In this document: positions 10,993-24,106 of the stretch, piece by piece
Position numbering within the stretch: position 1 is the first letter of the stretch
Layout: each line of letters begins with the position of its first letter
Assembly: GCA_010093995.1 (NCBI GenBank)
Contig: ML992502.1
Location: forward strand, 2,083,925-2,108,030
From: Elsinoe ampelina
Lineage: Eukaryota
Length of the DNA: 24,106 nt
Direction: 5' to 3'
Program-made: the position numbers and the translations under genes
The notes under the pieces: model-generated
What the model was told of the DNA's origin: nothing
Databases searched by the model: none
The model's input: only the letters and a program-made list of their open reading frames with translations

Positions 10993-12612
10993 ATGGCATA
11001 TAACGGGCGCATGAGCATGGCGCGCAGCTCACAGCAGTCCTCGCAGGGACGGAAGAAGGAAGATGACAGCGACGCTTTCATGACATTGGTACGTTGATTC
11101 CGCCGTCGCATGGTTTGACCTCGCCATTGGAATTCGTTGCGGTCGCATGTGCAAATGCCTCATATCTCCCGCACCCAGCGCAAGCATTCTCTACTACTGA
11201 TCCACTCCATGATTCTGCCAGGTATACTGACATCGCCAGCCTGATCGCGAAATTGCTGGCTGCATATCCGACATTGGCATTCCCTTCAGTGTCTCAGACC
11301 TCCAGAAACCAAATCCGCAACAGATCCAAAAGGTCTTTGAATGGTTCGCCGAACTCCTCCTCAACACGACGCGAGAAGTCGTTGCGCCAGGCATGTCCGC
11401 CGCAGCCTTTGCCATTTCCGGCGACGACGCAGACAGGATCTTCACGGCCGATACAAGAGAGCTGATGGGATTCTTCGTGATGCTGAGGAGACTGTTGGCC
11501 GAGTGTGGTGTCAAGGACTTTACATTCAGCGACCTCTACAAGCCAACGCATCCTCGCCTGGTACGAGTTTTTAGCTACATCATCAACTTCATTCGCTTCC
11601 GGGAATCCCAAACCCCAGTCATCGATCGCCACTTCAACAGCCTCGACGAGACCAAGCGCCGCATCGAATCTCTCTGGTCCGAAAACGAATCCCGCCGCGA
11701 CACGCTCGAAGACATGGAACGCAACAAAGACCGCCTATCCGAAGCCATGCGCGAGAAGGAGCGTCGCAGCCAGGACCTCAAAACCCGCCTCCTCGAACTC
11801 AAAAAAGGCCAAGAACGCGTCGCCGAAAAGCTCGAACGCGCCCGCGCCGAGCAATCCCGCCTCAAACTGGTCCTCGAAGAGCGCAACACCGACCGCATGA
11901 CCATCCGCAAAGAAGTCGAAAAGCTCCGGCCCTACGCCAGCCAATCCCCCGGCCAACTCGAACACCAACTCCGCGAGCTAGGCGACCAACTCGGCCGCGA
12001 GCGCGGCGAGATCGAACGCCTCGAGCGCCGCGACCGCGCCCTGAAAACCAGCCTCGACACGTTCGTCCTCGTCCACGCCGACGTGACGAGCCTCACGCGC
12101 CTGGCGACCGACGTCGCGGAGGAGTTGCGCAAAGAAGAAGAGGAGCTGTCGCGGGCGAACCGGGCGAGGGACGCGTTGAGCGAGCGGAGCAACAACGTGC
12201 GGGACGTGGAGCGGCAGGAGAGGTTCCTGGGGAAGCAGTTGCAGAGTTGGAACGAGCGGACGGAGAAGTTGAGGCGGACGGCCGAGGAGAAGCAGGAGGT
12301 GGCGAGGGTGAGGGTGGAGGAGTTGAGGGGGGTGCATGAGGGGTTGGGGAGGGAGAGGAGGGTGAGGGGGGAGGAGGTGGAGAGGAGGAGGGTGAGGATT
12401 GAGATGGTGGAGAAGAAGGTACGTCTTTGTTTCTTTGTCACTTTGGTGAACGGGGTTGGGGAGATGAGACATGGGATCGTGCTGACTTGTTGCAGATGGC
12501 GGATTTGAAGGATAATATCGAGAATGAGGTCCAGAGTGCGAGGGAGGAGTACATGAAGATGGAGAGCCATATTAAGCTTTATATCACGGAAATGGAGCAG
12601 AGTCTTGTTTGA
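10993..12612 (+). CDS. NUF2: Kinetochore protein Nuf2 (Ndc80 complex), ~463 aa; exons 10993-11088, 11240-12418, 12496-12612
   Basis: CH-domain motifs [29 protein letters not shown] and [34 protein letters not shown], then a long coiled coil ending [17 protein letters not shown]. Introns 11089-11239 and 12419-12495 are canonical. Confidence 0.95.
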
Positions 12613-13656: not shown

Positions 13657-13798
13657 TGTTGTAATGGAAGGCTGGTACAGCTTCTCTGGTACTGAAGAAC
13701 TGGCACTGATGAGTCAGCGCACGTACAGTAGATAAATCGGTTACTGTAACTCTCTGAATGAAACACACGTCTCTTGATCCGATTTGCTAGTTATAACA
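13657..13798 (+). repeat. 5' LTR (142 bp) of a Ty1/Copia retrotransposon
   Basis: Begins TGTTGTAA and ends TTATAACA (TTACAACA with one RIP C>T), i.e. short inverted termini TG...CA. It is immediately followed by a copia-type PBS. Confidence 0.75.
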
Positions 13799-13810
13799 GG
13801 TTATAAGCCC
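13799..13810 (+). other. Copia-type primer binding site GGTTATAAGCCC (RIP form of GGTTATGAGCCC)
   Basis: Directly abuts the LTR CA end and matches the GGTTATG(G/A)GCCC PBS used by copia-like elements primed with an initiator tRNA-Met fragment. Confidence 0.75.
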
Positions 13811-14201
13811 GGCGCTTCTATAAAAGCACTTAAAGCTGTAGCAAATTAAGCGTGTTATTATTAAAAGGATTACTAAGCTGCCTATACTAAATTCTAGACT
13901 AGCTATATTAAGACAAACACTTGTAGTAGCCTGTATTAACCCTTTAATCTAATAGCTTAAACGGCTTAAACAAGCTAATTACATTAATTAAATTAATAAG
14001 CCTTTAGCTAATTACTATTATTATATCTAGATTAGCAAAAATGCTTAAGACTTAGATTCTTAAGAGAGAAAGTAACTATAATACTTAGAGATTAACTCTT
14101 AAGGTAGCTCTCCTTAAAAAGGATATACTTAGATATACAATTTATAGCATCGACTAGATACTAGTAGTTATAAAGCCTAAAGAACTAGCTCTAGATACTA
14201 G

Positions 14202-14218
14202 TAGAGTAGTTTTTAGGT
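14202..14218 (+). repeat. Left terminal inverted repeat of the hAT element
   Basis: TAGAGTAGTTTTTAGGT, preceded by the TSD GATACTAG. Confidence 0.9.
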
Positions 14219-14578
14219 TAGGTTAGGTACTAGAATTACTACCTATAACCTAACCTATAGCGATACTAGTACTTAAAGCTTGGTAACTGTAACTCTCTAA
14301 GCCTTAGGTAGTGTTACTTAGCCTTAGGTATATAGTTAGTTATAGTGTTACTTATAACACTACCTAATAGTACCTATAGGTACCTAAGAGTTAAGGAGTA
14401 GATATATATCTTAAGAACTTAAGATTTAGGAATTAAAATTTAAAAGTTAAAGGTTATAATTACATTTATTAATTACGCTAATCTTGCTAGTACCTCCTAT
14501 CTACTCTTATAGCCTACGCCTTACTTACTTATCTACCTTTATAGAATAATTGTCCTTACTATAAACTATCTAATTGTC

Positions 14579-15113
14579 CTAGTTATATATATTAAACTTT
14601 GTATAATAGCGACAAGTAAGCTATAAATCTTTCTAGTTAATAGTAACTTACTTAGCATAAATACAATTAAGGTTCATATCTAAGAATATTAGTATCTATA
14701 ATAGCATTAAATTTAAATAATAGATACCTTCTATATACCTAATAATAAATGCTTCTATTGCTTCCTAAAGTGCTTTAAGAGCTTTAGATTAGATATAAAA
14801 GCTTTTACCTTAATAAACATAGTCTTTAATAATCTTATAGACAAGGTAGCTAAAGAGAAGCTTATAGTAGAGAAGTTTAATTAACTTCTAGTAGCAATAA
14901 ATCTCTCGGAGAGCAATAGCTATATAGTATTAGTAATGTAACATAATAATTAATTGTAATAATTATACTACTAGCCTTAAACTTGTTCTTCTTTCTAGAA
15001 GCAATAGTTATCTTATAAAGTTACTTAGTAGTAGAAGCCTTAGGTCTACTAGACAACTTACTCTTATAACTATAACTATAGGTTAGTACTATAGTACCTC
15101 TCTTAGGAGGTAT
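14579..15113 (-). pseudogene. RIP-mutated histone H3-like gene inside the hAT; exons 15113-14969, 14919-14728, 14679-~14579 (~145 aa)
   Basis: Literal translation: ...RKKNKFKAST IALREIYCY*KLIKLLYYKLLFSYLVYKI...FYI*SKALKAL*EAIEAFIIRYIED MNLNCIYAK*VTIN*KDL*LTCR. Using only C>T/G>A reversions this becomes KFKAGTVALREIRRYQKS.ELL.RKLPFSRLVREI...RIQSEALEALQEATEAF.VG..ED.NLNCIHAKRVTINQKDSQLARR. Two 48-49 nt introns have TACTAAT branch sites. Confidence 0.9.
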
Positions 15114-15751
15114 AGTTACTATTACTACTAAGGATAGAGTCTTAGGAGGTACTTATAATATAAAGTAATCTTATAGTAGTAAGGGTAAGGTAGTAGAGGG
15201 TATAGAAAGTAACGAGGTAGATATAGTAGTAGTATAAAGAAAGATAAGTAGAAAGAGAAGAGGTAAAAGGGATAGAAGAAGAGAAATACGTAATAAGAAG
15301 AGAAATGTATAATAATTTAGTAGCTAGTAATAGCATAGCTAACAATAGGAATATAATATTATAATAGAAATATAAAATTAGTAAATTAGAAATATATAGT
15401 ATATAGAATACTTGCTTATTATAATATTATTTATAATAGTAAAGTATATAATATTAGATTTATTTAAACGCTTAGAAGAAGAGGAATCTAGACATTATAG
15501 AGTACTAATAATAAGTATATAATAATCTAGCGTAATAATACAATACTAATTTAGTATACTATAATTCTTAAAAACCTTACATTTTATATTTTATATTCTA
15601 CCCTAGCTACCTTATTGTTACTTTATACATAGTAGAAGGCTATATTACTCTTCTCTATTCTTCTTCTTCTTCTATTAACTTCCTTTTTTCTTGTCTCTAT
15701 TGCCTTTTTGTTTCTACGCTCTTAAGTTTAACTTTTATATCTTATTTTACT

Positions 15752-17095
15752 ATAGTAACCTCTCTAGATACTTCTATAGCTAATATACCTTCTAATACTT
15801 CTCCTAGTAGCTTTCCTAAGATTAAGAATAAGTTTAATAAGTTTAAAACTATAATAGAGATAATTATTATAGTGTTTTATTACGAGTATTAAGCTAATAG
15901 GTATAGGGCTTTAGGTCTAAGTAGGCTAAAATCAAATACTAGATCCTTTAGTATAGTTAAGGTAGCAAGGCATATCGTAGTTGTCTAACTAGTTTTAAAG
16001 CAGGTTTAAGTAAGCCTTTAAAGTAGAATATTTAGAATATTATACGCTAAGATAAAGATGCTTAATAGTTAGCTAAGGTTAAGGCACTTAAAGTAGCTAG
16101 AGATACTAATTGTAGTATAAAGAGGAATTTGCTTAAGAAGTTTAATATAAATACTTAAGTCTAGAACCTTAGTAAAGAAGCAAAGGTAGAACTCCTTATA
16201 GAAAAGATTAAGGAAATAGAGTAGCGCCGTTTCGACGCCTAGTAAAGCTATATAATTATACTACTATATTATCACATTTAACACTAATAGATTATAGATA
16301 AATAGCTATCTAGCAAGTTTAGAAAAGTCTATGTTAAATAGTAGCGCATTAGAAAATTTGCTATATGTTAAGAGTATATAAAAGTCCTTATAAAGGCAAA
16401 GGTAGCTTATACTACTAAGTCTAGCAAGGAGAATAACATGTTAAGAGTAGCTAAGTAGATATATAGTTCTAGCGGAATTCTCGAGAAGCTTAAGTATAAG
16501 ATCTATATAGCTAGCGCTACTAAGCTTACTATTAATAAAGGTACTAATAAGAATACTAAGAAGAAGTACTTAAAGTTTGTCTAGAAACTTAGTAAGGAGG
16601 GTAGGCTTACTACTATCTCCGATCCTAACTAGTAGTAAGTTCCCTATTATTATTATATATTATTATTACGTTAGTATACTAATAAATAGCAGAGCTTATA
16701 ATTCTATACCTCCGGCTAAGTATTAACTACTCGAGCTAATCTATCTTATAGATAAAGGTAAATATATAAAGCCTAATAACAATAACAAGTGTAAAGAAGT
16801 ATATAAGCTAGACTATAACTCTAAGATTAAGAAACTAGCTAATAAGTATAAGACAGACAAGTAGTATATAGAGTTTAAGAGGTTTTCCTCTAATAAGGAT
16901 AAGATTATTAATAAGAGAGAGAGGGTTAAAGTAGAAAGTTCTTTAGAGGGTAGAGATAAGGAGAAGAATAATAATAAGAATAATAATAAGAATAATAATA
17001 AGGATAATAATAAGGATAATAATAAGAATAATAATAAGGAAAGGGATAAGGAAATAGTCGATGCTAAGGAAGATAAATTTACTAGCTTTAACTAG
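15752..17095 (+). pseudogene. RIP-mutated cargo gene for a ~409 aa acidic protein with a long D/E C-terminal tail; probable exons 15752-16009, 16069-16634, 16690-17095
   Basis: One frame is maintained across introns GTAAGC..TAG (16010-16068) and GTAAGT..TACTAAT..TAG (16635-16689). All internal stops are TAA/TAG. The tail (aag aat/gat aat aat)n de-RIPs to EDDD repeats and ends EEMVDAEEDEFTGFD*. Confidence 0.65.
16960..17040 (+). repeat. 12-bp tandem repeat AAG(A/G)ATAATAAT, about 6 copies; RIP-altered GAG GAT GAT GAT acidic coding tract
   Basis: Directly visible, and in frame with the acidic cargo gene. Confidence 0.8.
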
Positions 17096-17199
17096 TAGAT
17101 TTTCTATACTATAATCAACTACTAAGTAGTTTAATCTATAGTATAGTCCGGCCCTTTTATAGATTTAAGTTTTATAATAAGATCTTTTCCTATATAGCT

Positions 17200-17869
17200 A
17201 CTATTATTATTTATGCTTCTAATTGTTACCTCTAATAATAGTAAATTATCTATATTATTACTTCTAACAATAGATTTCTATTACTATTGTTACTATAAAC
17301 AATAGGAGGTACTAGATATATATACTATCTCGTTCCTATTTATTCTTTTTTCTAAAACCTCTCTTTCTTATTATTATAGCTTCTCATGTATAACTCTATT
17401 CTAACTTAGAAGATCTAATCCTCTATTAGCCTTATACTATAACTTATAGTAACTACGCTAGGCTACTACACTTACGTTAGTATAAAGCTTATATCTACTA
17501 TATAACTAAGTAATTTATTAATAGTAAGGAAAGGTAGACTACTTATATCTATAATAACAATAGAGGCTTCGAACTTTGCTATAAGGCCTATTACTCTTAT
17601 AATACCCCTTATAACTTTATTAGTATTCCTAATCTAATACTACTATATTCTCTAATAAGTATTAGTACGACAGCTTCTAGACTAATAATATTTTTAACCT
17701 TATCGACATATAGCGTACACTTAATCGTTACTATCTTAATCTTATCCGGGATTAGATTACAATCTTTAATATACGCTATAGCGTTAAACGCTAGTAGGAC
17801 AAGCTAGATAATTCTAAATCCTAAGGATCTTAATAGTTCTAATTCTTCTAGTAACTAGTTTAGTAGTAT
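17200..17869 (-). pseudogene. Probable third RIP-mutated cargo gene of unknown function (3' end uncertain)
   Basis: The minus-strand frame from ATA(ATG) at 17869 de-RIPs to MPPNQLPEELEPLRSLGFRIIQLVPPAFDAVAYIEDCNLIPDEI.... Two candidate introns (GT..TACTAAT..TAG and GTAAGT..GCTAAT..TAG) preserve the frame. Confidence 0.45.
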
Positions 17870-18369
17870 AATATAAATAAAGCATTAGCGGGCTAATAGC
17901 TTTAGTAGGTTTTTTATAATATAGATATGCCTTTAATTTTAAAAATTTTCTACTCTACCCTAATATAGACATGCCTTTAATTTTAATTATGTTACCTATT
18001 CCTTAGCCCCTATATAATATAAGTCTAGCCTATAGAAATTAATATACCTCTTACTTTAAAGTTTCTATAGTATAGTATAGGATTTATTATTACATATTAT
18101 AAACACGTTAATAAATATTCTATAATAAGTTATCTACCTTTATTAAATAATATAATCTATACTAATTAACATATCTAGAGCTTCTAACTCTAAGTTAGTA
18201 CTTAACCTATAACTTAGAGATACTATATATTTCTCTCTAGCTATTCTAGCAGAATTACGTAGCTTTATAATCTCCGCTTAGAATGTTAGACGCAATAGTA
18301 GAATACAACAATTATAACTCCTTAAATGCCTGCCTTTTTAATCTAGTAAGAGATTTAAGAATTAACCTC

Positions 18370-20800
18370 TATAATAAGCCTAGAAAGACTAGTAGAGTCG
18401 AATAATTATAGTATCTATATATAAAGAAGGCACGAAAATTGTACTAAATTAGAATTCTAAAGCACGTTCTAGAGGTCTATAGGCAAATATCATAGAAGCT
18501 ACTAAGATTTATAATAGAGAACTATAAGTTATTTATAATAGGTATAGTAATATACTTACTTATTCTACTTACTGTTATACTAGTAATAAAGCAATAGAGA
18601 GACATCTTAAGTCTTAGAAATACACTATAGTTGTTAAGTACTGCTATAAGTAAAGCTCTACCTAAAAAGCCCTTAAGCAATTATAATAGTATATAAAGAG
18701 TATTTACTAAATTATCTCTCTATTCTCTACTAATATCTTCTACTATAAGCTTATTCGTATAGTTACTAACTATAACTAGTCTTTCCGCATAGTTAAGCGT
18801 TCTACCTTTAGCTAATTCCTCTACTTCCTTCGACCTAATATTACTATACCTAGCTAGACTCTTTTTTAAGTAACACTAGTAGTATAATTTAAAAGGTTAT
18901 AAAAATTACTACTCTCTAACCTCGGTAAGAACACTAAGCTTTTAATAGCGTTAGATAGATAGTCTACTAATAACTACTTAGGGTTTATTATAATTAAAGG
19001 CTATTTTATTAATAACTAATAGCAATTACAAGAGTAGCTCCTAGAAATAACACCCCTTTAAGGTTGCTACACTAGTAAAGCTATAGCAAATAAGGTAATA
19101 TAGGTACTAAAAGATGTATCGGTTAAGTAATAACTACTTATAGTTATAGCAGATAATATATTAAATAATAAAACACTCCGAGAGTCTCTCGAAAGAAGCC
19201 TAGGTACACTAGATATTAAGTAGAATATAAAGGAGAATATAATTCTATACCTAGTATATATTATTAATCTTGTTATATAGGACATTATTAAGCATCTAAA
19301 ACTTAAGACAAGCAAAGAGATTAACATAGTAGAGAGGTTATAAAACTACTATATCTAGAATATTATAATATTAGTCTCTGTTCCGAATTTACTATAGAAG
19401 GTATATAACATTTATTACATTGTTTTATTACGTCCTAATATTAGTAAGCTCTATGTAATATATATTATAATTAATAGTTCCCTATAATAGTTTAAACAAT
19501 TTATAGACCTCTAGAAGCATCTACTACCTAAGAAGAGGTACTAAGTTATATATAATGTTAAGACACGCTAGAATTTAACATATAATATATATAAGCAAGT
19601 ATTAAAGCTTAAACCTTTTATTAAGAATTAGCTCGAGAATAAGACTATACTCTAAGTACTAAGAACTTCTTCTAAGGTATTAATATCTAAACTGCTCTCT
19701 AACATTAACAACTATAACTTTACTAAGTTATTACTTAATCCGAATAAGTAGTAGTATCTTAAATCTATTATAGTAATACTAGAGAACTTTAAGAAAGTAA
19801 TAACATAGCTAAGTACTAGTAGCTAACCTCTTCTCTAGCATATATAGACGATGTATAATGTACTCTTTAACTTCTTAGATAAAATTAAAAAAGGCCTAAT
19901 TAGCACTAAGAATTATAACAATCTACCTATATAGCTAGCTACTATATAAAAGGTAGTAGTAAAAGGACAAGAGAAGCTTAAGAAATACTATATATAAACT
20001 AAGGATAGGAAGGACATACTCTATAACTATATAACAATTCTTAACCTCTCTAAGAAGCTTATAGTATATAATATAAGCGCCTATAGTCTTTCTAGTAAGT
20101 AGTAGCTAATAACACTTAGGATATAGAGACTTAGAAACCTTACTATAAAGACAACTATTATAAGAAGTTCTTATAGTACCTTTGTTAGTATAATAAGATA
20201 GACCCCTTAATTGCTTTACTAGCCTCTACCTCTAAGCTATTACGTCACTAGTAACGAGACTAGTTTAACTAACCGAAACGAAAGAAGTAAGATTATACCC
20301 TATTACTATAAAGCGATAGTCTATACTTCTTATTTATTCCCTCGAAGCGTACTATAGTTAAAGAAGGTAAGGACTACCTTACGACACTACTAGTCTATAT
20401 TTAGAAACTCGATGTCTTATAGTAGTAGAAAGAGAAGAAGGAAGAATATCTATTACTATTACGTATAGCAAAAGATATTCTAGTAATTCTAATTATAGGG
20501 GTTAGAGTCGAGTAAGTGTTTAACATTATAAAGAATATTATTAGTGCGCGGAGGCATAAATTAGTAGCCTAAACTATTTAGTAGCTTATAATGTTAAAGT
20601 ATAAGCTTAAAGCAGCTTTACTATTAGGACAAATTAATATAGAACTAGAGATAGAGGATAAGGCTACTAATACTAATAATTTGCTTAAATTGTTATTAAG
20701 GACTAATATAAATTAACTAGACAATATTACTATAGTACTAAGCTATAGTAATAATAACTACTCTAAATTAGAGAGAGAAAGAGTATAGGGAAGTTAATAG
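18370..20800 (+). pseudogene. hAT transposase, RIP-mutated (boundaries approximate)
   Basis: De-RIP motifs: BED-like MERHLKSQKH (~18595), first catalytic D SIALDGWST (~18943), GHFIDNQWQL, second D TADNA (~19146), PCLAHIINL (CxxH, ~19245), DVKTRWNST (~19555), and the hATC dimerisation domain DVLQWWKEKKEEYPLLSRMAKDILAIPIAGVGVERVFN (20411-20524). Confidence 0.92.
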
Positions 20801-21283
20801 TATTCTAGTAGAAAGCGTTAGCAGATTTACTAGCTAGATTATATTTGTACTTCTAGTATAATTTGTATATTTTGCTTACTACCTCCCCTTACGTAATAAA
20901 GTAGCGTAATAAAGTTAGGCCTAAAAATTTGTAAGGTATAGTAACGCGCTAAGCTATAGAGTAAGNNNNNNNNNNATAAGGCTACTAATACTAATAATTT
21001 GCTTAAATTGTTATTAAGGACTAATATAAATTAACTAGACAATATTACTATAGTACTAAGCTATAGTAATAATAACTACTCTAAATTAGAGAGAGAAAGA
21101 GTATAGGGAAGTTAATAGTATTCTAGTAGAAAGCGTTAGCAGATTTACTAGCTAGATTATATTTGTACTTCTAGTATAATTTGTATATTTTGCTTACTAC
21201 CTCCCCTTACGTAATAAAGTAGCGTAATAAAGTTAGGCCTAAAAATTTGTAAGGTATAGTAACGCGCTAAGCTATAGAGTAAG
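20658..21283. other. Assembly gap (10 N at 20966-20975) flanked by an identical 308-bp direct duplication (20658-20965 = 20976-21283)
   Basis: The two copies read identically and meet exactly at the N run, as expected for unmerged overlapping contig ends. Confidence 0.85.
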
Positions 21284-21464
21284 TGCTTTAACTACTAACC
21301 TATTAGGTACTATTAGGCAGGTACTAGGTTAGGTACCCCCCCCCCTAAGGGCGACACTACAACTATATACTAACCCTACCTACCTTAGTATAGTACCTAA
21401 CCTAGAGCAACCTCTCTCTACTAAGCTTTTATACCTAACCCCTACCTAATATAGTGCTATATCT

Positions 21465-21481
21465 ACCTAAAAACCACTCTA
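21465..21481 (-). repeat. Right terminal inverted repeat of the hAT element
   Basis: Reverse complement is TAGAGTGGTTTTTAGGT, followed by the TSD GATACTAG. Confidence 0.9.
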
Positions 21482-21489
21482 GATACTAG

Positions 21490-24106
21490 TAAAGGCACTA
21501 AGGTAATCTATAAGGTTAGGAATAAGACCTAGTATAAGAATAATAGAATTACTTATAGTATTATTATAATAAGGATTTATAAATCTATTAGACCTTACTA
21601 TAGTATAACTTAGAAGACTTTAAAGGAACTTCTAGACACTATTAAAGCCACATTTAAACCTATTATTTTATATAAGCTATATATAGCTATCTATAACCTT
21701 AACAAGGTAATTATAACAAGTTATAACACCTAAAGGTACTATAAAGATTTTATAAAGTACTATTATTAATACACTATTACTATAGAGCAAAGAGCAAGCA
21801 CTATTAGTACTAAACTAGATAAGTTTAGGCTCCCTCTATACTATATTAAGACTATATTTATTATAGGAATAGAGACTACTAAATAGTTAAGGAGCTAGAG
21901 ATCTAGCCTTAACTATAAGAAGAGTCTTAAAGAAATAATAAGCTCTCTTAGAATATAGAAGCCCCTATATAATAGAAGAACTAATCTAAACCCTATTTAT
22001 AGAGTAGCTAGTTATATTAAGAATTAATACACTTAGTATACTTATTATATCTACTCTAATATAGATTACTTTAAGTAGTACTCTAAGAAAGCACTAAAGA
22101 GTTAAAGTAAAAGAGATAACAAAGACAAGTTAAATAATAAAGGTATAAAGGCTAAAGGTAAAGGTAACAAGTTAAAGACTAAGAAAGTTAGAGGTTAAGT
22201 AGCTATTAAAGAATCTAGAGAACCTACTAAGGTAGGTAAATTAGATAAATACTCTAACACTAATATTAATATTATTATACTAGTCTATAGAGTAGTAGTA
22301 GTATCTACATTATTATCCTTAACCTATAGTAAGAATAGAGCAATCTATAACTCTAGTATATTAAGGTACTTTATTAAAGACAAGTTATAGTTCTTAATAA
22401 TTAAGGTATATAAAGGTATTCTTAAGTTTAAATAAGCTATTAGTATAAAGAAGCTACTTAATATAGAAGTTAGTATAGTTAGGCTTACTCTAACTAATAG
22501 TAAAGGCAAGAAGTTAATTATTAAGCTTTATAATTATATATACTTACTATTATTACTAAACACCCTTATATCTAATCTTTAGAACAAAGAGGAACTTAGT
22601 ATCTCTATAGCTAGCAAATCCTTAATAAAGGATAGAAAGGAAGTTAGCCTTATTAAACACTTTAAAAGAGTTAAATAGCTTAAGAACTTTAAAGTCTATA
22701 AGCCTTAGAACTATAAGGAATTACCTATAAGGCTAAAACTATAGAAGCTATAGGCTATAAGAGCAAATCTAGCTATTATAACTACTTAAAAGCTAACATT
22801 AGAAAGATAGTACTAGAGGTTAGGCTATATTAGTAATACTATTCTCTCCCTTACTAAAAGTTAAGCTATTAGATTAGAAGAACTTTAAATATTAGATCTT
22901 AGCTACTATAAACTATATACTATATTAAAGGCATAGAGAGTAGTATTAAGAGAACTAAGAGATATACTAAAGTACTTACTAGATAAGCTCTATCTAGACC
23001 TTGTTAGTCCTATTAAACTATAGTTAAGTAAGGGCTATAAATACCTTCTCTTTATAACATATAGTAAAAGCAAGTACAAGTTTATTACTATTCTCTTTCT
23101 TAAGAGTAATACACTAGTAGTAATTAAACTTATCTATACAAGGAATAAAATAGCCTATAATAAGCTTTTATTTATCTTTATCTCTAATAGAGGAGGTAAA
23201 TTTAAGAACTATAAACTAGTAATAGCTATTTATCTTAAAGGGTAGAGATAGAATATCTCTATACCTAATACTTAATACTAAGATAGTAAATCTAAGGCTA
23301 CTAATAAAGTAGTTATTCTTAGGATAAGGTATATCTTTGTTAATTATAGAGCACCCCTTAAACTCTAGTATATAGTTATAGAGTTTATAATCTATATTAG
23401 TAATAGAATTACCTATACTAAAACTAAGAAGATTCCTATATAAGAGCTAAGAAAGGATCTTCTTAATAATAATAGGCTAGTCTTATTAACTTACATTAGA
23501 CGCTTTAGCTATAGAGCCTATATCTATAACTAACATGTTTCTAAATTATATAAATTCTAAGCTAGAGCACTACTTAGTTAGTATATTAGTATATAAAATA
23601 ACTTAACGACTAATTACCTTATCTAGATACTCTATTAGTATTATACTTAGTAAGCCTAGAAGGAAAAGATTATTATATTACTCTATGTAATATTTAATAA
23701 GAATATAATCTATAAAGACTAGGTAATATAAGTTATTAAATAGCTATATATCTTATAGGTATAATAACCTAAGGCTTTATAGCTTTAGGGGGAGTAGACA
23801 TTTAGTAGTAATTATAATTAAGGCTATAGCTATAATTAACTACCCTTTAGTTATAAGAATCTATAAACTACTTAGGCTAAACAACCTTAAGTTAAATAAC
23901 TAACATCTAACTACCCTTTAATCCCTAGATATAAATAACAATTATCTACCCCTATTAAAGAATAGAAGGAGTAATACTAACATCCTAAACTAGATCCTTA
24001 ACCTGTTAATAAACAGGGGGAGTAACTTAATATTACTAATTATAAAGGTAAAGACCTTATAACACTACTACCTAAAGTTATTAGTAAACTATATTTAACC
24101 TTTAAT
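21490..24106 (+). pseudogene. Copia gag-pol (gag C-terminal part, protease, GAG-pre-integrase, integrase), RIP-mutated
   Basis: Motifs as listed for the element. The stops at motif positions are TAA/TAG, replacing CAA/CAG/TGG/CGA codons. Confidence 0.85.

What the first reader, a model, noticed from the sequence alone, without database searches (positions are those of the whole stretch)
14194..21489. Complete four-gene hAT element with intact TIRs and TSD, organised as two divergent gene pairs
Seen: TSD-TIR-[H3-like <-][-> acidic protein][ORF3 <-][-> transposase]-TIR-TSD, about 7 kb. The perfect 8-bp TSD shows that the whole cargo-laden unit transposed as one. Uniform heavy RIP across the cargo implies the cargo was multicopy. 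Typical autonomous fungal hATs encode only a transposase, so this looks like a stable multi-gene transposon lineage rather than fragmentary Pack-type capture.
Basis: partly seen in the sequence, partly recalled or inferred. Interest (0 to 1): 0.75.

Follow-up and report, generated by a model that had tools for sequence, protein, structure and literature searches.

The report
Dead histone-carrying fungal hAT transposon
This is a mutation-killed copy of a fungal jumping gene from an old lineage that always carries its own histone H3-like gene and a partner gene of unknown function, here with one extra passenger segment.

Summary
The element is real. It has 17-bp TIRs and an 8-bp TSD (single in empty sites), and 11 of 12 two-ended copies in this genome carry the cargo. 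Every copy examined is RIP-dead. True length is about 6.95 kb; 318 bp is an assembly duplication. It is a four-part variant of the published Pyrenophora tritici-repentis (Ptr) H3L-hAT: the acidic ORF2 is homologous to Ptr's 'central ORF', with the same order and H3L intron positions. Two sister families in this genome and two unRIPped metagenome contigs keep the head-to-head H3L/ORF2 pair, so the stable-lineage reading holds for three genes. 'Two divergent pairs' is doubtful. ORF3 is absent from Ptr and family C, lies elsewhere in family B, is about three times less diverged than the transposase, has no homologue found, and more likely reads on the + strand (~65%). A heptamer repeated at 13-bp period marks introns and inner ends, and its core differs between families. 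Best mechanism (inferred): an element-encoded chromatin system, VANDAL/VANC-like, that loads H3L lacking intact K9/K27 motifs onto the element. The scan noted this lineage and the motif before, on other pieces of this genome.

The parts
14194..14201 (.). left 8-bp target-site duplication
   Evidence: single copy in empty sites
14202..14218 (+). left TIR, 17 bp, followed by short GGTTA-type subterminal repeats (RIPped)
14457..14476 (+). 13-bp-period heptamer pair (TWATCAC type, RIPped), left inner end
14579..15113 (-). H3L histone H3-like gene, RIP-dead; start at 15092 or 15113; introns 14968-14920 and 14727-14680; motif pair in intron 1 (14943-14962)
   Evidence: PF00125; 41% to unRIPped L115 H3L exon 2, E 1e-7; coordinates
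15519..15538 (-). heptamer pair in the shared H3L/ORF2 upstream region
15752..17094 (+). ORF2, homologue of the Ptr 'central ORF'; helical core plus acidic tail; three introns (about 15860-15906, 16242-16305, 16635-16692), pairs in introns 1 and 3; RIP-dead
17376..17930 (+). ORF3: conserved ~570-bp gene-like passenger shared with family B; strand (+ about 65%) and exon structure uncertain; no homologue found
   Evidence: null searches
18171..20821 (+). hAT transposase, RIP-dead; introns at about 19401-19445 (motif pair 19412-19431) and from about 20095
   Evidence: PF05699; 30% to unRIPped L116 transposase exon 2, E 2e-18
20958..21275 (.). assembly artefact: 10-N gap and exact second copy of 20658-20957
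21211..21230 (-). heptamer pair at right inner end (artefactual twin at 20893-20912)
21465..21481 (-). right TIR
21482..21489 (.). right target-site duplication

Best explanation
Shown: a cut-and-paste hAT of the Ptr H3L-hAT lineage spread to at least 12 sites in this genome, here into an older multicopy repeat, and was then killed by RIP. Its inherited core is H3L(-) ORF2(+) transposase. ORF3 is a later passenger, exchanged between or separately acquired by families A and B. Inferred mechanism: H3L and ORF2, expressed head-to-head, form a self-directed chromatin system. An element-encoded protein (ORF2 is my pick) recognises the 13-bp-period heptamer pairs laid through introns, leaders and inner ends. 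It brings H3L, whose tail lacks intact ARKS motifs at K9 and K27, into the element's nucleosomes, keeping the element expressed and its ends accessible in vegetative cells. It does not protect against RIP. Confidence: lineage identity 0.95; inherited functional three-gene core 0.85; this particular mechanism about 0.3.
For: ORF2 profile finds 26 proteins at E<=1e-3. Of 10 looked up, 5 are named, all Pleosporales. A second search returns Ptr P0028 and Ptr ORF2/hAT-dimer chimeras, the chimera described in PMC3538342. The H3L/ORF2 head-to-head pair occurs in families A, B, C, in L115 and in the Ptr consensus (by eye). Both H3L introns sit at the same codons in the window, L115, Ptr and C. zeae-maydis, and differ from the host H3 introns. 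ORF2 between L115 and L116: pN 0.35/0.41 against pS 0.71/0.78. TTATCAC: 7 in L115 (0.28 expected), 11 in L116 (0.56), 0 in 13.5 kb of host genes. Pairs at 13-bp period: 7 loci in A, 7 in C, and 7 of a TTCTCAC variant in B, against 7 and 5 pairs in 236.7 kb of other RIPped DNA. H3L tails of L115 and Ptr have no intact ARKS. VANC21 binds short family-specific motifs in introns, intergenic and terminal regions of its own element (PMC5735166, passages).
Against: No binding, expression or chromatin data. ORF2 has no Pfam family in common, no known fold and no recognisable DNA-binding domain. All copies found here are dead, so nothing can be observed in this genome. The motif could be read by the transposase or a host factor. 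L116 keeps ORF2 and the transposase but only a possible H3L fragment, so H3L can be lost from a copy. The motif patterns were chosen after seeing the sequences. In the window copy the spacing control is not clean (10 hits at gap 5, 9 at gap 6), probably because of TTA-type repeats; it is clean in B and C.
Confidence: 0.35

Rival explanations
1. The heptamer pairs are transposase (BED finger) sites used for autoregulation or synapsis. H3L and ORF2 serve another purpose, such as steering insertion into heterochromatin or repeats.
For: hAT transposases bind short internal repeats (recalled). Pairs sit at both inner ends, pointing inward. Most fetched flanks of copies are AT-rich RIPped DNA.
Against: A separate GGTTG-type subterminal repeat class already exists. 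Pairs lie in introns kilobases from the ends. Survival of insertions in repeats is also expected from selection alone.
Confidence: 0.25
2. The pairs are sites for a host transcription factor (the reverse strand reads TGATAA, a GATA site) that co-activates all element genes; H3L and ORF2 act elsewhere.
For: TTATCAC is the complement of a GATA consensus (recalled); pairs occur in leaders and introns.
Against: Family B uses TTCTCAC at all 7 pair loci, and C. zeae-maydis uses an unrelated GCCGAC-type core with the same 13-bp period (by eye). A conserved host factor would not switch with the family.
Confidence: 0.1
3. The pair is a by-product of introns copied within the element (a splicing or intron-gain signature), and H3L/ORF2 have unrelated roles.
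For: Intronic pairs always lie in the transcribed orientation.
Against: 3 of 7 pair loci in A are outside introns, and those behind gene ends are antisense. H3L intron 2 lacks the pair in the window, L115 and Ptr.
Confidence: 0.15
4. Published view: H3-like cargo results from independent, recent transcript captures (transduplication) and drifts as a passive passenger.
For: PMC6710886 reports no host introns in P. fijiensis copies and no DNA similarity between Ptr and Mycosphaerellaceae elements.
Against: H3L has two introns of its own at shared positions in four lineages, including that paper's own C. zeae-maydis and Ptr consensus. Same partner gene and order in Ptr and here; ORF2 under purifying selection.
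Confidence: 0.1
5. One reading: ORF3 is a minus-strand gene forming a second divergent pair with the transposase.
For: An R/Y codon model prefers that frame by 4.6 (A) and 10.1 (B) log units over the + frame. It has the fewest stops in the 3' half (2.7 against 4.9 per copy).
Against: That model ranked the true frame first in only 4 of 7 controls. A/B transversions avoid 4-fold sites in that frame (0.10 against 0.20, p=0.97) and lean towards them in the + frame (0.14 against 0.09, p=0.21). Amino-acid identity is 0.81 (+) against 0.72 (-) in the main block. An in-frame start after a CT-rich leader is shared by A and B only on +. In family B the segment is not next to the transposase start at all.
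Confidence: 0.3

Closest known systems
H3L-carrying hAT of Pyrenophora tritici-repentis (Manning et al. 2013, PMC3538342; section 20 part 1, passages and supplement hits seen)
   Same: hAT transposase + central ORF + H3L between TIRs; same order and orientation; homologous ORF2; same two H3L intron positions; same TTATCAC pairs (Ptr consensus)
   Different: 6.95 kb against 5.6 kb because of ORF3; RIP-dead here, near-intact in Ptr; three coexisting families with different gene orders here
H3-like-carrying hATs of Mycosphaerellaceae (Dhillon et al. 2019, PMC6710886; parts 1-4 of 7 and supplement 2 parts 1 and 5 seen)
   Same: RIP-dead multicopy hAT, short TIR, 8-bp TSD, H3-like cargo; C. zeae-maydis H3L shows the same two introns and a 13-bp-period motif (by eye)
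   Different: about 9.5 kb, other motif core; whether they carry ORF2 was not tested; the authors infer retro-capture, which the introns contradict
VANDAL/VANC anti-silencing system of Arabidopsis (Hosaka et al. 2017, PMC5735166; passages seen)
   Same: accessory gene plus short family-specific motifs in introns, intergenic and terminal DNA
   Different: MuDR not hAT; no sequence relation of ORF2 to VANC found; no histone; VANC binding is shown, here only inferred
TET/JBP-encoding fungal DNA transposons, including hAT7 (PMC12730594; passages seen)
   Same: fungal DNA transposons with whole epigenetic accessory genes, passed between families without boundary signatures (as ORF3 appears to be)
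   Different: different cargo, 7-bp TSD, rust fungi

Membership tests
hAT superfamily | short terminal inverted repeats | tested here: met
   17 bp, 16/17
hAT superfamily | 8-bp target-site duplication | tested here: met
   6 perfect and 3 transition-only among 12 two-ended copies; empty sites
hAT superfamily | transposase with C-terminal dimerisation domain | tested here: met
   PF05699 E 7.8e-6
hAT superfamily | DDE triad and BED finger | tested here: inconclusive
   D, D and E motifs visible by eye in RIPped translations; Cys/Trp erased by RIP; motif names recalled
Ptr H3L-hAT lineage | divergent H3-like gene inside the TIRs | tested here: met
Ptr H3L-hAT lineage | central ORF homologue | tested here: met
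   direct window match to P0028 E 1e-4
Ptr H3L-hAT lineage | order H3L(-) ORF(+) transposase(+) and shared H3L introns | tested here: met
   (by eye)
Ptr H3L-hAT lineage | three genes, about 5.6 kb | tested here: not met
   extra ORF3 segment, 6.95 kb; hence a variant. Family C (5.75 kb) has three genes in another order
Ptr H3L-hAT lineage | monophyly of H3L and transposase with Ptr | not tested
   no tree built; the H3L search was swamped by canonical histones
Pack-type (fragmentary host capture) | non-autonomous element with host gene fragments | tested here: not met
   transposase present; whole intron-bearing genes; no intact host source for ORF2 or ORF3 among 9 and 34 matches
VANDAL/VANC | MuDR transposase and VANC-family protein | tested here: not met
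   hAT domain; no such Pfam family in 8 ORF2 homologues
VANDAL/VANC | family-specific motif arrays in non-coding parts | tested here: met
VANDAL/VANC | accessory protein binds the motif and removes silencing | not testable with these tools
   needs EMSA/ChIP
CenH3 | CATD/loop-1 and centromeric location | not tested
   L115 H3L has a loop-1 insertion relative to A; Manning et al. place H3L in neither H3 nor CenH3

The most novel reading that the evidence does not exclude
An old Dothideomycete hAT lineage encodes its own sequence-addressed histone-replacement system: ORF2 reads a co-evolving 13-bp-period DNA label and deposits a K9/K27-motif-less H3 variant on the element. The published 'independent H3 captures' would then be one vertically inherited system, with ORF3 a swappable extra module.
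Probability: 0.3. Interest if true: 0.85.

Novelty: new variant of a known kind. Interest (0 to 1): 0.48.

Why it matters
The element type is published, and this copy is dead. What it adds is comparative: three coexisting families with reshuffled gene order separate the inherited core (H3L, ORF2, transposase, motif pairs) from an optional passenger (ORF3). Shared introns and the partner gene argue against the published picture of repeated passive H3 capture. If the motif/ORF2/H3L link holds, it would be a fungal transposon anti-silencing system built on a histone variant, and a compact sequence-specific chromatin tool. My searches found no paper that makes this link; the library lacks most subscription journals and Repbase reports.

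Tried and rejected
De-RIP from 28 aligned pieces reached only 35% GC in A (39% B, 35% C): too saturated to recover open frames. ORF3 homologue search: none of 5373 candidates scored E<=0.01; no Pfam hit in 17 members; in the own genome 34 matches, all at A- or B-like identity, none unRIPped. The RIPped query makes these weak negatives, and the minus frame was searched only against Pfam. No TIR or TSD around ORF3 was seen, so a nested insertion is not supported. H3L homologue search returned only canonical histone entries among the best 120 of 6584. ORF2: model pLDDT 67, pTM 0.34, all helical; no Foldseek match at E<=1e-3; best VIA Z 7.3, generic helices; no Atlas hit for P0028; nothing in viral contigs. 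Complex prediction of an H3L exon + host H4 + ORF2 gave no verdict (score 0.00, alignment not used, H3L lacked its last helix); it is not evidence either way. Transversion periodicity is flat in ORF3 (15/17/20 by position), while clear in the transposase (81/58/131). A possible ORF3 intron near 17617-17663 could not be settled. TSDs of L002, L003 and L004 do not match; recombination or assembly chimeras were not tested. Supplements of PMC3538342: files 13-31 not searched; PMC6710886 supplement 2 parts 2-4 seen only as search hits.
Full report
Observation. The 8-mer at 14194-14201 recurs at 21482-21489, and 17-bp TIRs lie inside it (16 of 17 match). The element interrupts an older repeat with at least 40 copies (40 of 188 candidates scored). 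In three other copies of that repeat the flanks join over a single 8-mer, so the TSD is real. A 300-bp exact duplicate across a 10-N gap is absent from five other full-length copies of 6919-6974 bp and is an assembly artefact. With stops read as X, Pfam finds a histone fold on the minus strand and the hAT dimerisation domain on the plus strand, and nothing else in 21 frames.

Copies. The genome search scored 40 of 182 candidates and listed 45 matches. Twelve family-A copies have both ends. Six have perfect TSDs, three differ by one or two transitions, three do not match; all target sites differ. Eleven carry the cargo (one with 1180 N over part of ORF2); one lacks 14443-19543. The six uninterrupted copies are 93.1-94.3% identical, and 98% of differences are transitions. 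No unRIPped copy turned up, though counts from these searches are lower bounds. A ~470-bp palindromic MITE family shares the TIR alone and has 8-bp TSDs.

Two sister families. Fifteen matches at 71-72% over 17277-17925 led to family B: 7.6-7.85 kb, a different ~26-bp TIR, TSD perfect in 5 of 7 copies with both ends found. Its order is H3L(-) ORF2(+) transposase(+), with the ORF3 segment behind the transposase and inverted relative to A. The histone search led to family C: 5.75 kb, TSD perfect in 3 of 3 (by eye), order transposase(-) H3L(-) ORF2(+), no ORF3. The only constant neighbours are H3L and ORF2, head to head.

What ORF2 is. A profile of 22 RIPped pieces found 26 proteins at E<=1e-3, one of them an unrelated repeat protein. 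Five of ten looked up are named: Alternaria, three Pyrenophora species, Boeremia. A profile of the intact hits returned 17 proteins, among them Ptr P0028 and four Ptr proteins fusing its N-terminus to the hAT dimer domain. That is the chimera Manning et al. describe for their H3L-hAT. ORF2 is therefore the Ptr 'central ORF'. One metagenome scan gave two unRIPped loci: L115 with H3L(-) ORF2(+), and L116 with ORF2(+) transposase(+) and at most an H3L fragment. Between them ORF2 has pN 0.35-0.41 against near-saturated pS 0.71-0.78. It folds as long helices with a disordered acidic tail and has no structural match.

H3L is inherited, not freshly captured. Its two introns (phase 1, after KxG and after the E that precedes D-x-N) sit at the same codons in the window, L115, the Ptr consensus and the C. 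zeae-maydis consensus (the last two read by eye from PMC6710886 supplement 2). The host H3 has its introns elsewhere. This conflicts with the retro-capture and independent-origin reading of Dhillon et al.. The second intron is 48 nt in the window and L115; the 16-aa 'insertion' that paper reports may be this intron (inference, untested). I built no tree.

ORF3. The segment 17345-17940 is shared by A and B only. At 4-fold sites of the best frame A and B differ by 0.14 transversions against 0.46 in the transposase, so it moved between the families, or entered both, after they split. It holds no motif pair in either family and shows no boundary repeats. Its strand is open. For -: an R/Y codon model of modest reliability and fewer stops in the 3' half. 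I put + at about 65%. No homologue was found. 'Four genes' should read 'three genes and a gene-like passenger'.

A label through the element. The unRIPped relatives hold TTATCAC 7 and 11 times (0.28 and 0.56 expected), mostly as pairs at 13-bp period in introns. RIP-tolerant pairs occur at 7 loci in A and 7 in C; B has none of this type but 7 of a TTCTCAC type. Other RIPped DNA has 0.15-0.21 per 7 kb. In the window four are in introns, one between H3L and ORF2, and two at the inner ends pointing inward. By eye the Ptr consensus has pairs in 6 of 7 introns, and C. zeae-maydis shows a different core at the same period. The patterns were chosen post hoc, and the spacing control is blurred in the window copy. 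I saw the motif before looking it up; the scan had noted it on other pieces of this genome.

How it most likely works. Transposition is ordinary hAT cut-and-paste (shown by TIR, TSD and domain). The long conservation of H3L, ORF2 and the label means they served the element (inferred from selection and synteny). My preferred mechanism is VANC-like: an element protein reads the family's label and loads H3L, which lacks intact K9 and K27 ARKS motifs in L115 and Ptr (role of these motifs recalled), so the element stays expressed. Each step of that is inference; I give it about 0.3-0.35, ahead of transposase-binding, intron by-product and host-factor readings.

Verdict. A new four-part variant of a published element, dead in this genome. 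Interest 0.48.

Noticed in passing
window 20658-21275: Exact 300-bp duplication across a 10-N gap; assembly artefact that inflates the element by 318 bp.
   Followed up: yes
window ~13790-14193 and 21490-24106: Host of the insertion: a RIPped repeat with at least 40 copies; by eye Ty1/copia-like gag-pol motifs (label recalled; Pfam found nothing in three frames).
   Followed up: partly
L047 2146-2617, L048 2153-2625, L045, L049, L026: ~470-bp near-perfectly palindromic MITE family sharing the family-A 17-bp TIR, with 8-bp TSDs; one copy nested in another (L045).
   Followed up: partly
L051-L065, L103-L106 (family B): Second H3L-hAT family, 7.85 kb, at least 21 ORF3-bearing copies; extra coding-like DNA beyond ORF3 and ~800 bp unexplained near its right end.
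   Followed up: partly
L107-L114 (family C): Third H3L-hAT family, 5.75 kb, transposase placed downstream of H3L, no ORF3.
   Followed up: partly
L002, L003, L004: Full-length copies whose flanking 8-mers do not match; possible ectopic recombination or assembly chimeras.
   Followed up: no
L116 1-560: UnRIPped relative with ORF2 and transposase but only a possible H3L N-terminal remnant next to the left end.
   Followed up: partly
PMC6710886 supplement 2, Czm and Smu consensus: GCCGAC-type motif repeated at 13-bp period, also in the first H3L intron of Czm; same period as here with another core.
   Followed up: partly
window 14189-14206: The left TSD is flanked by a short palindrome resembling the TIR end, so the direct repeat at the two junctions extends to 15 bp.
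   Followed up: no
window 11231-12508: Host ORF that looks like kinetochore protein Nuf2 (recalled, not tested), 1.7 kb from the repeat island.
   Followed up: no
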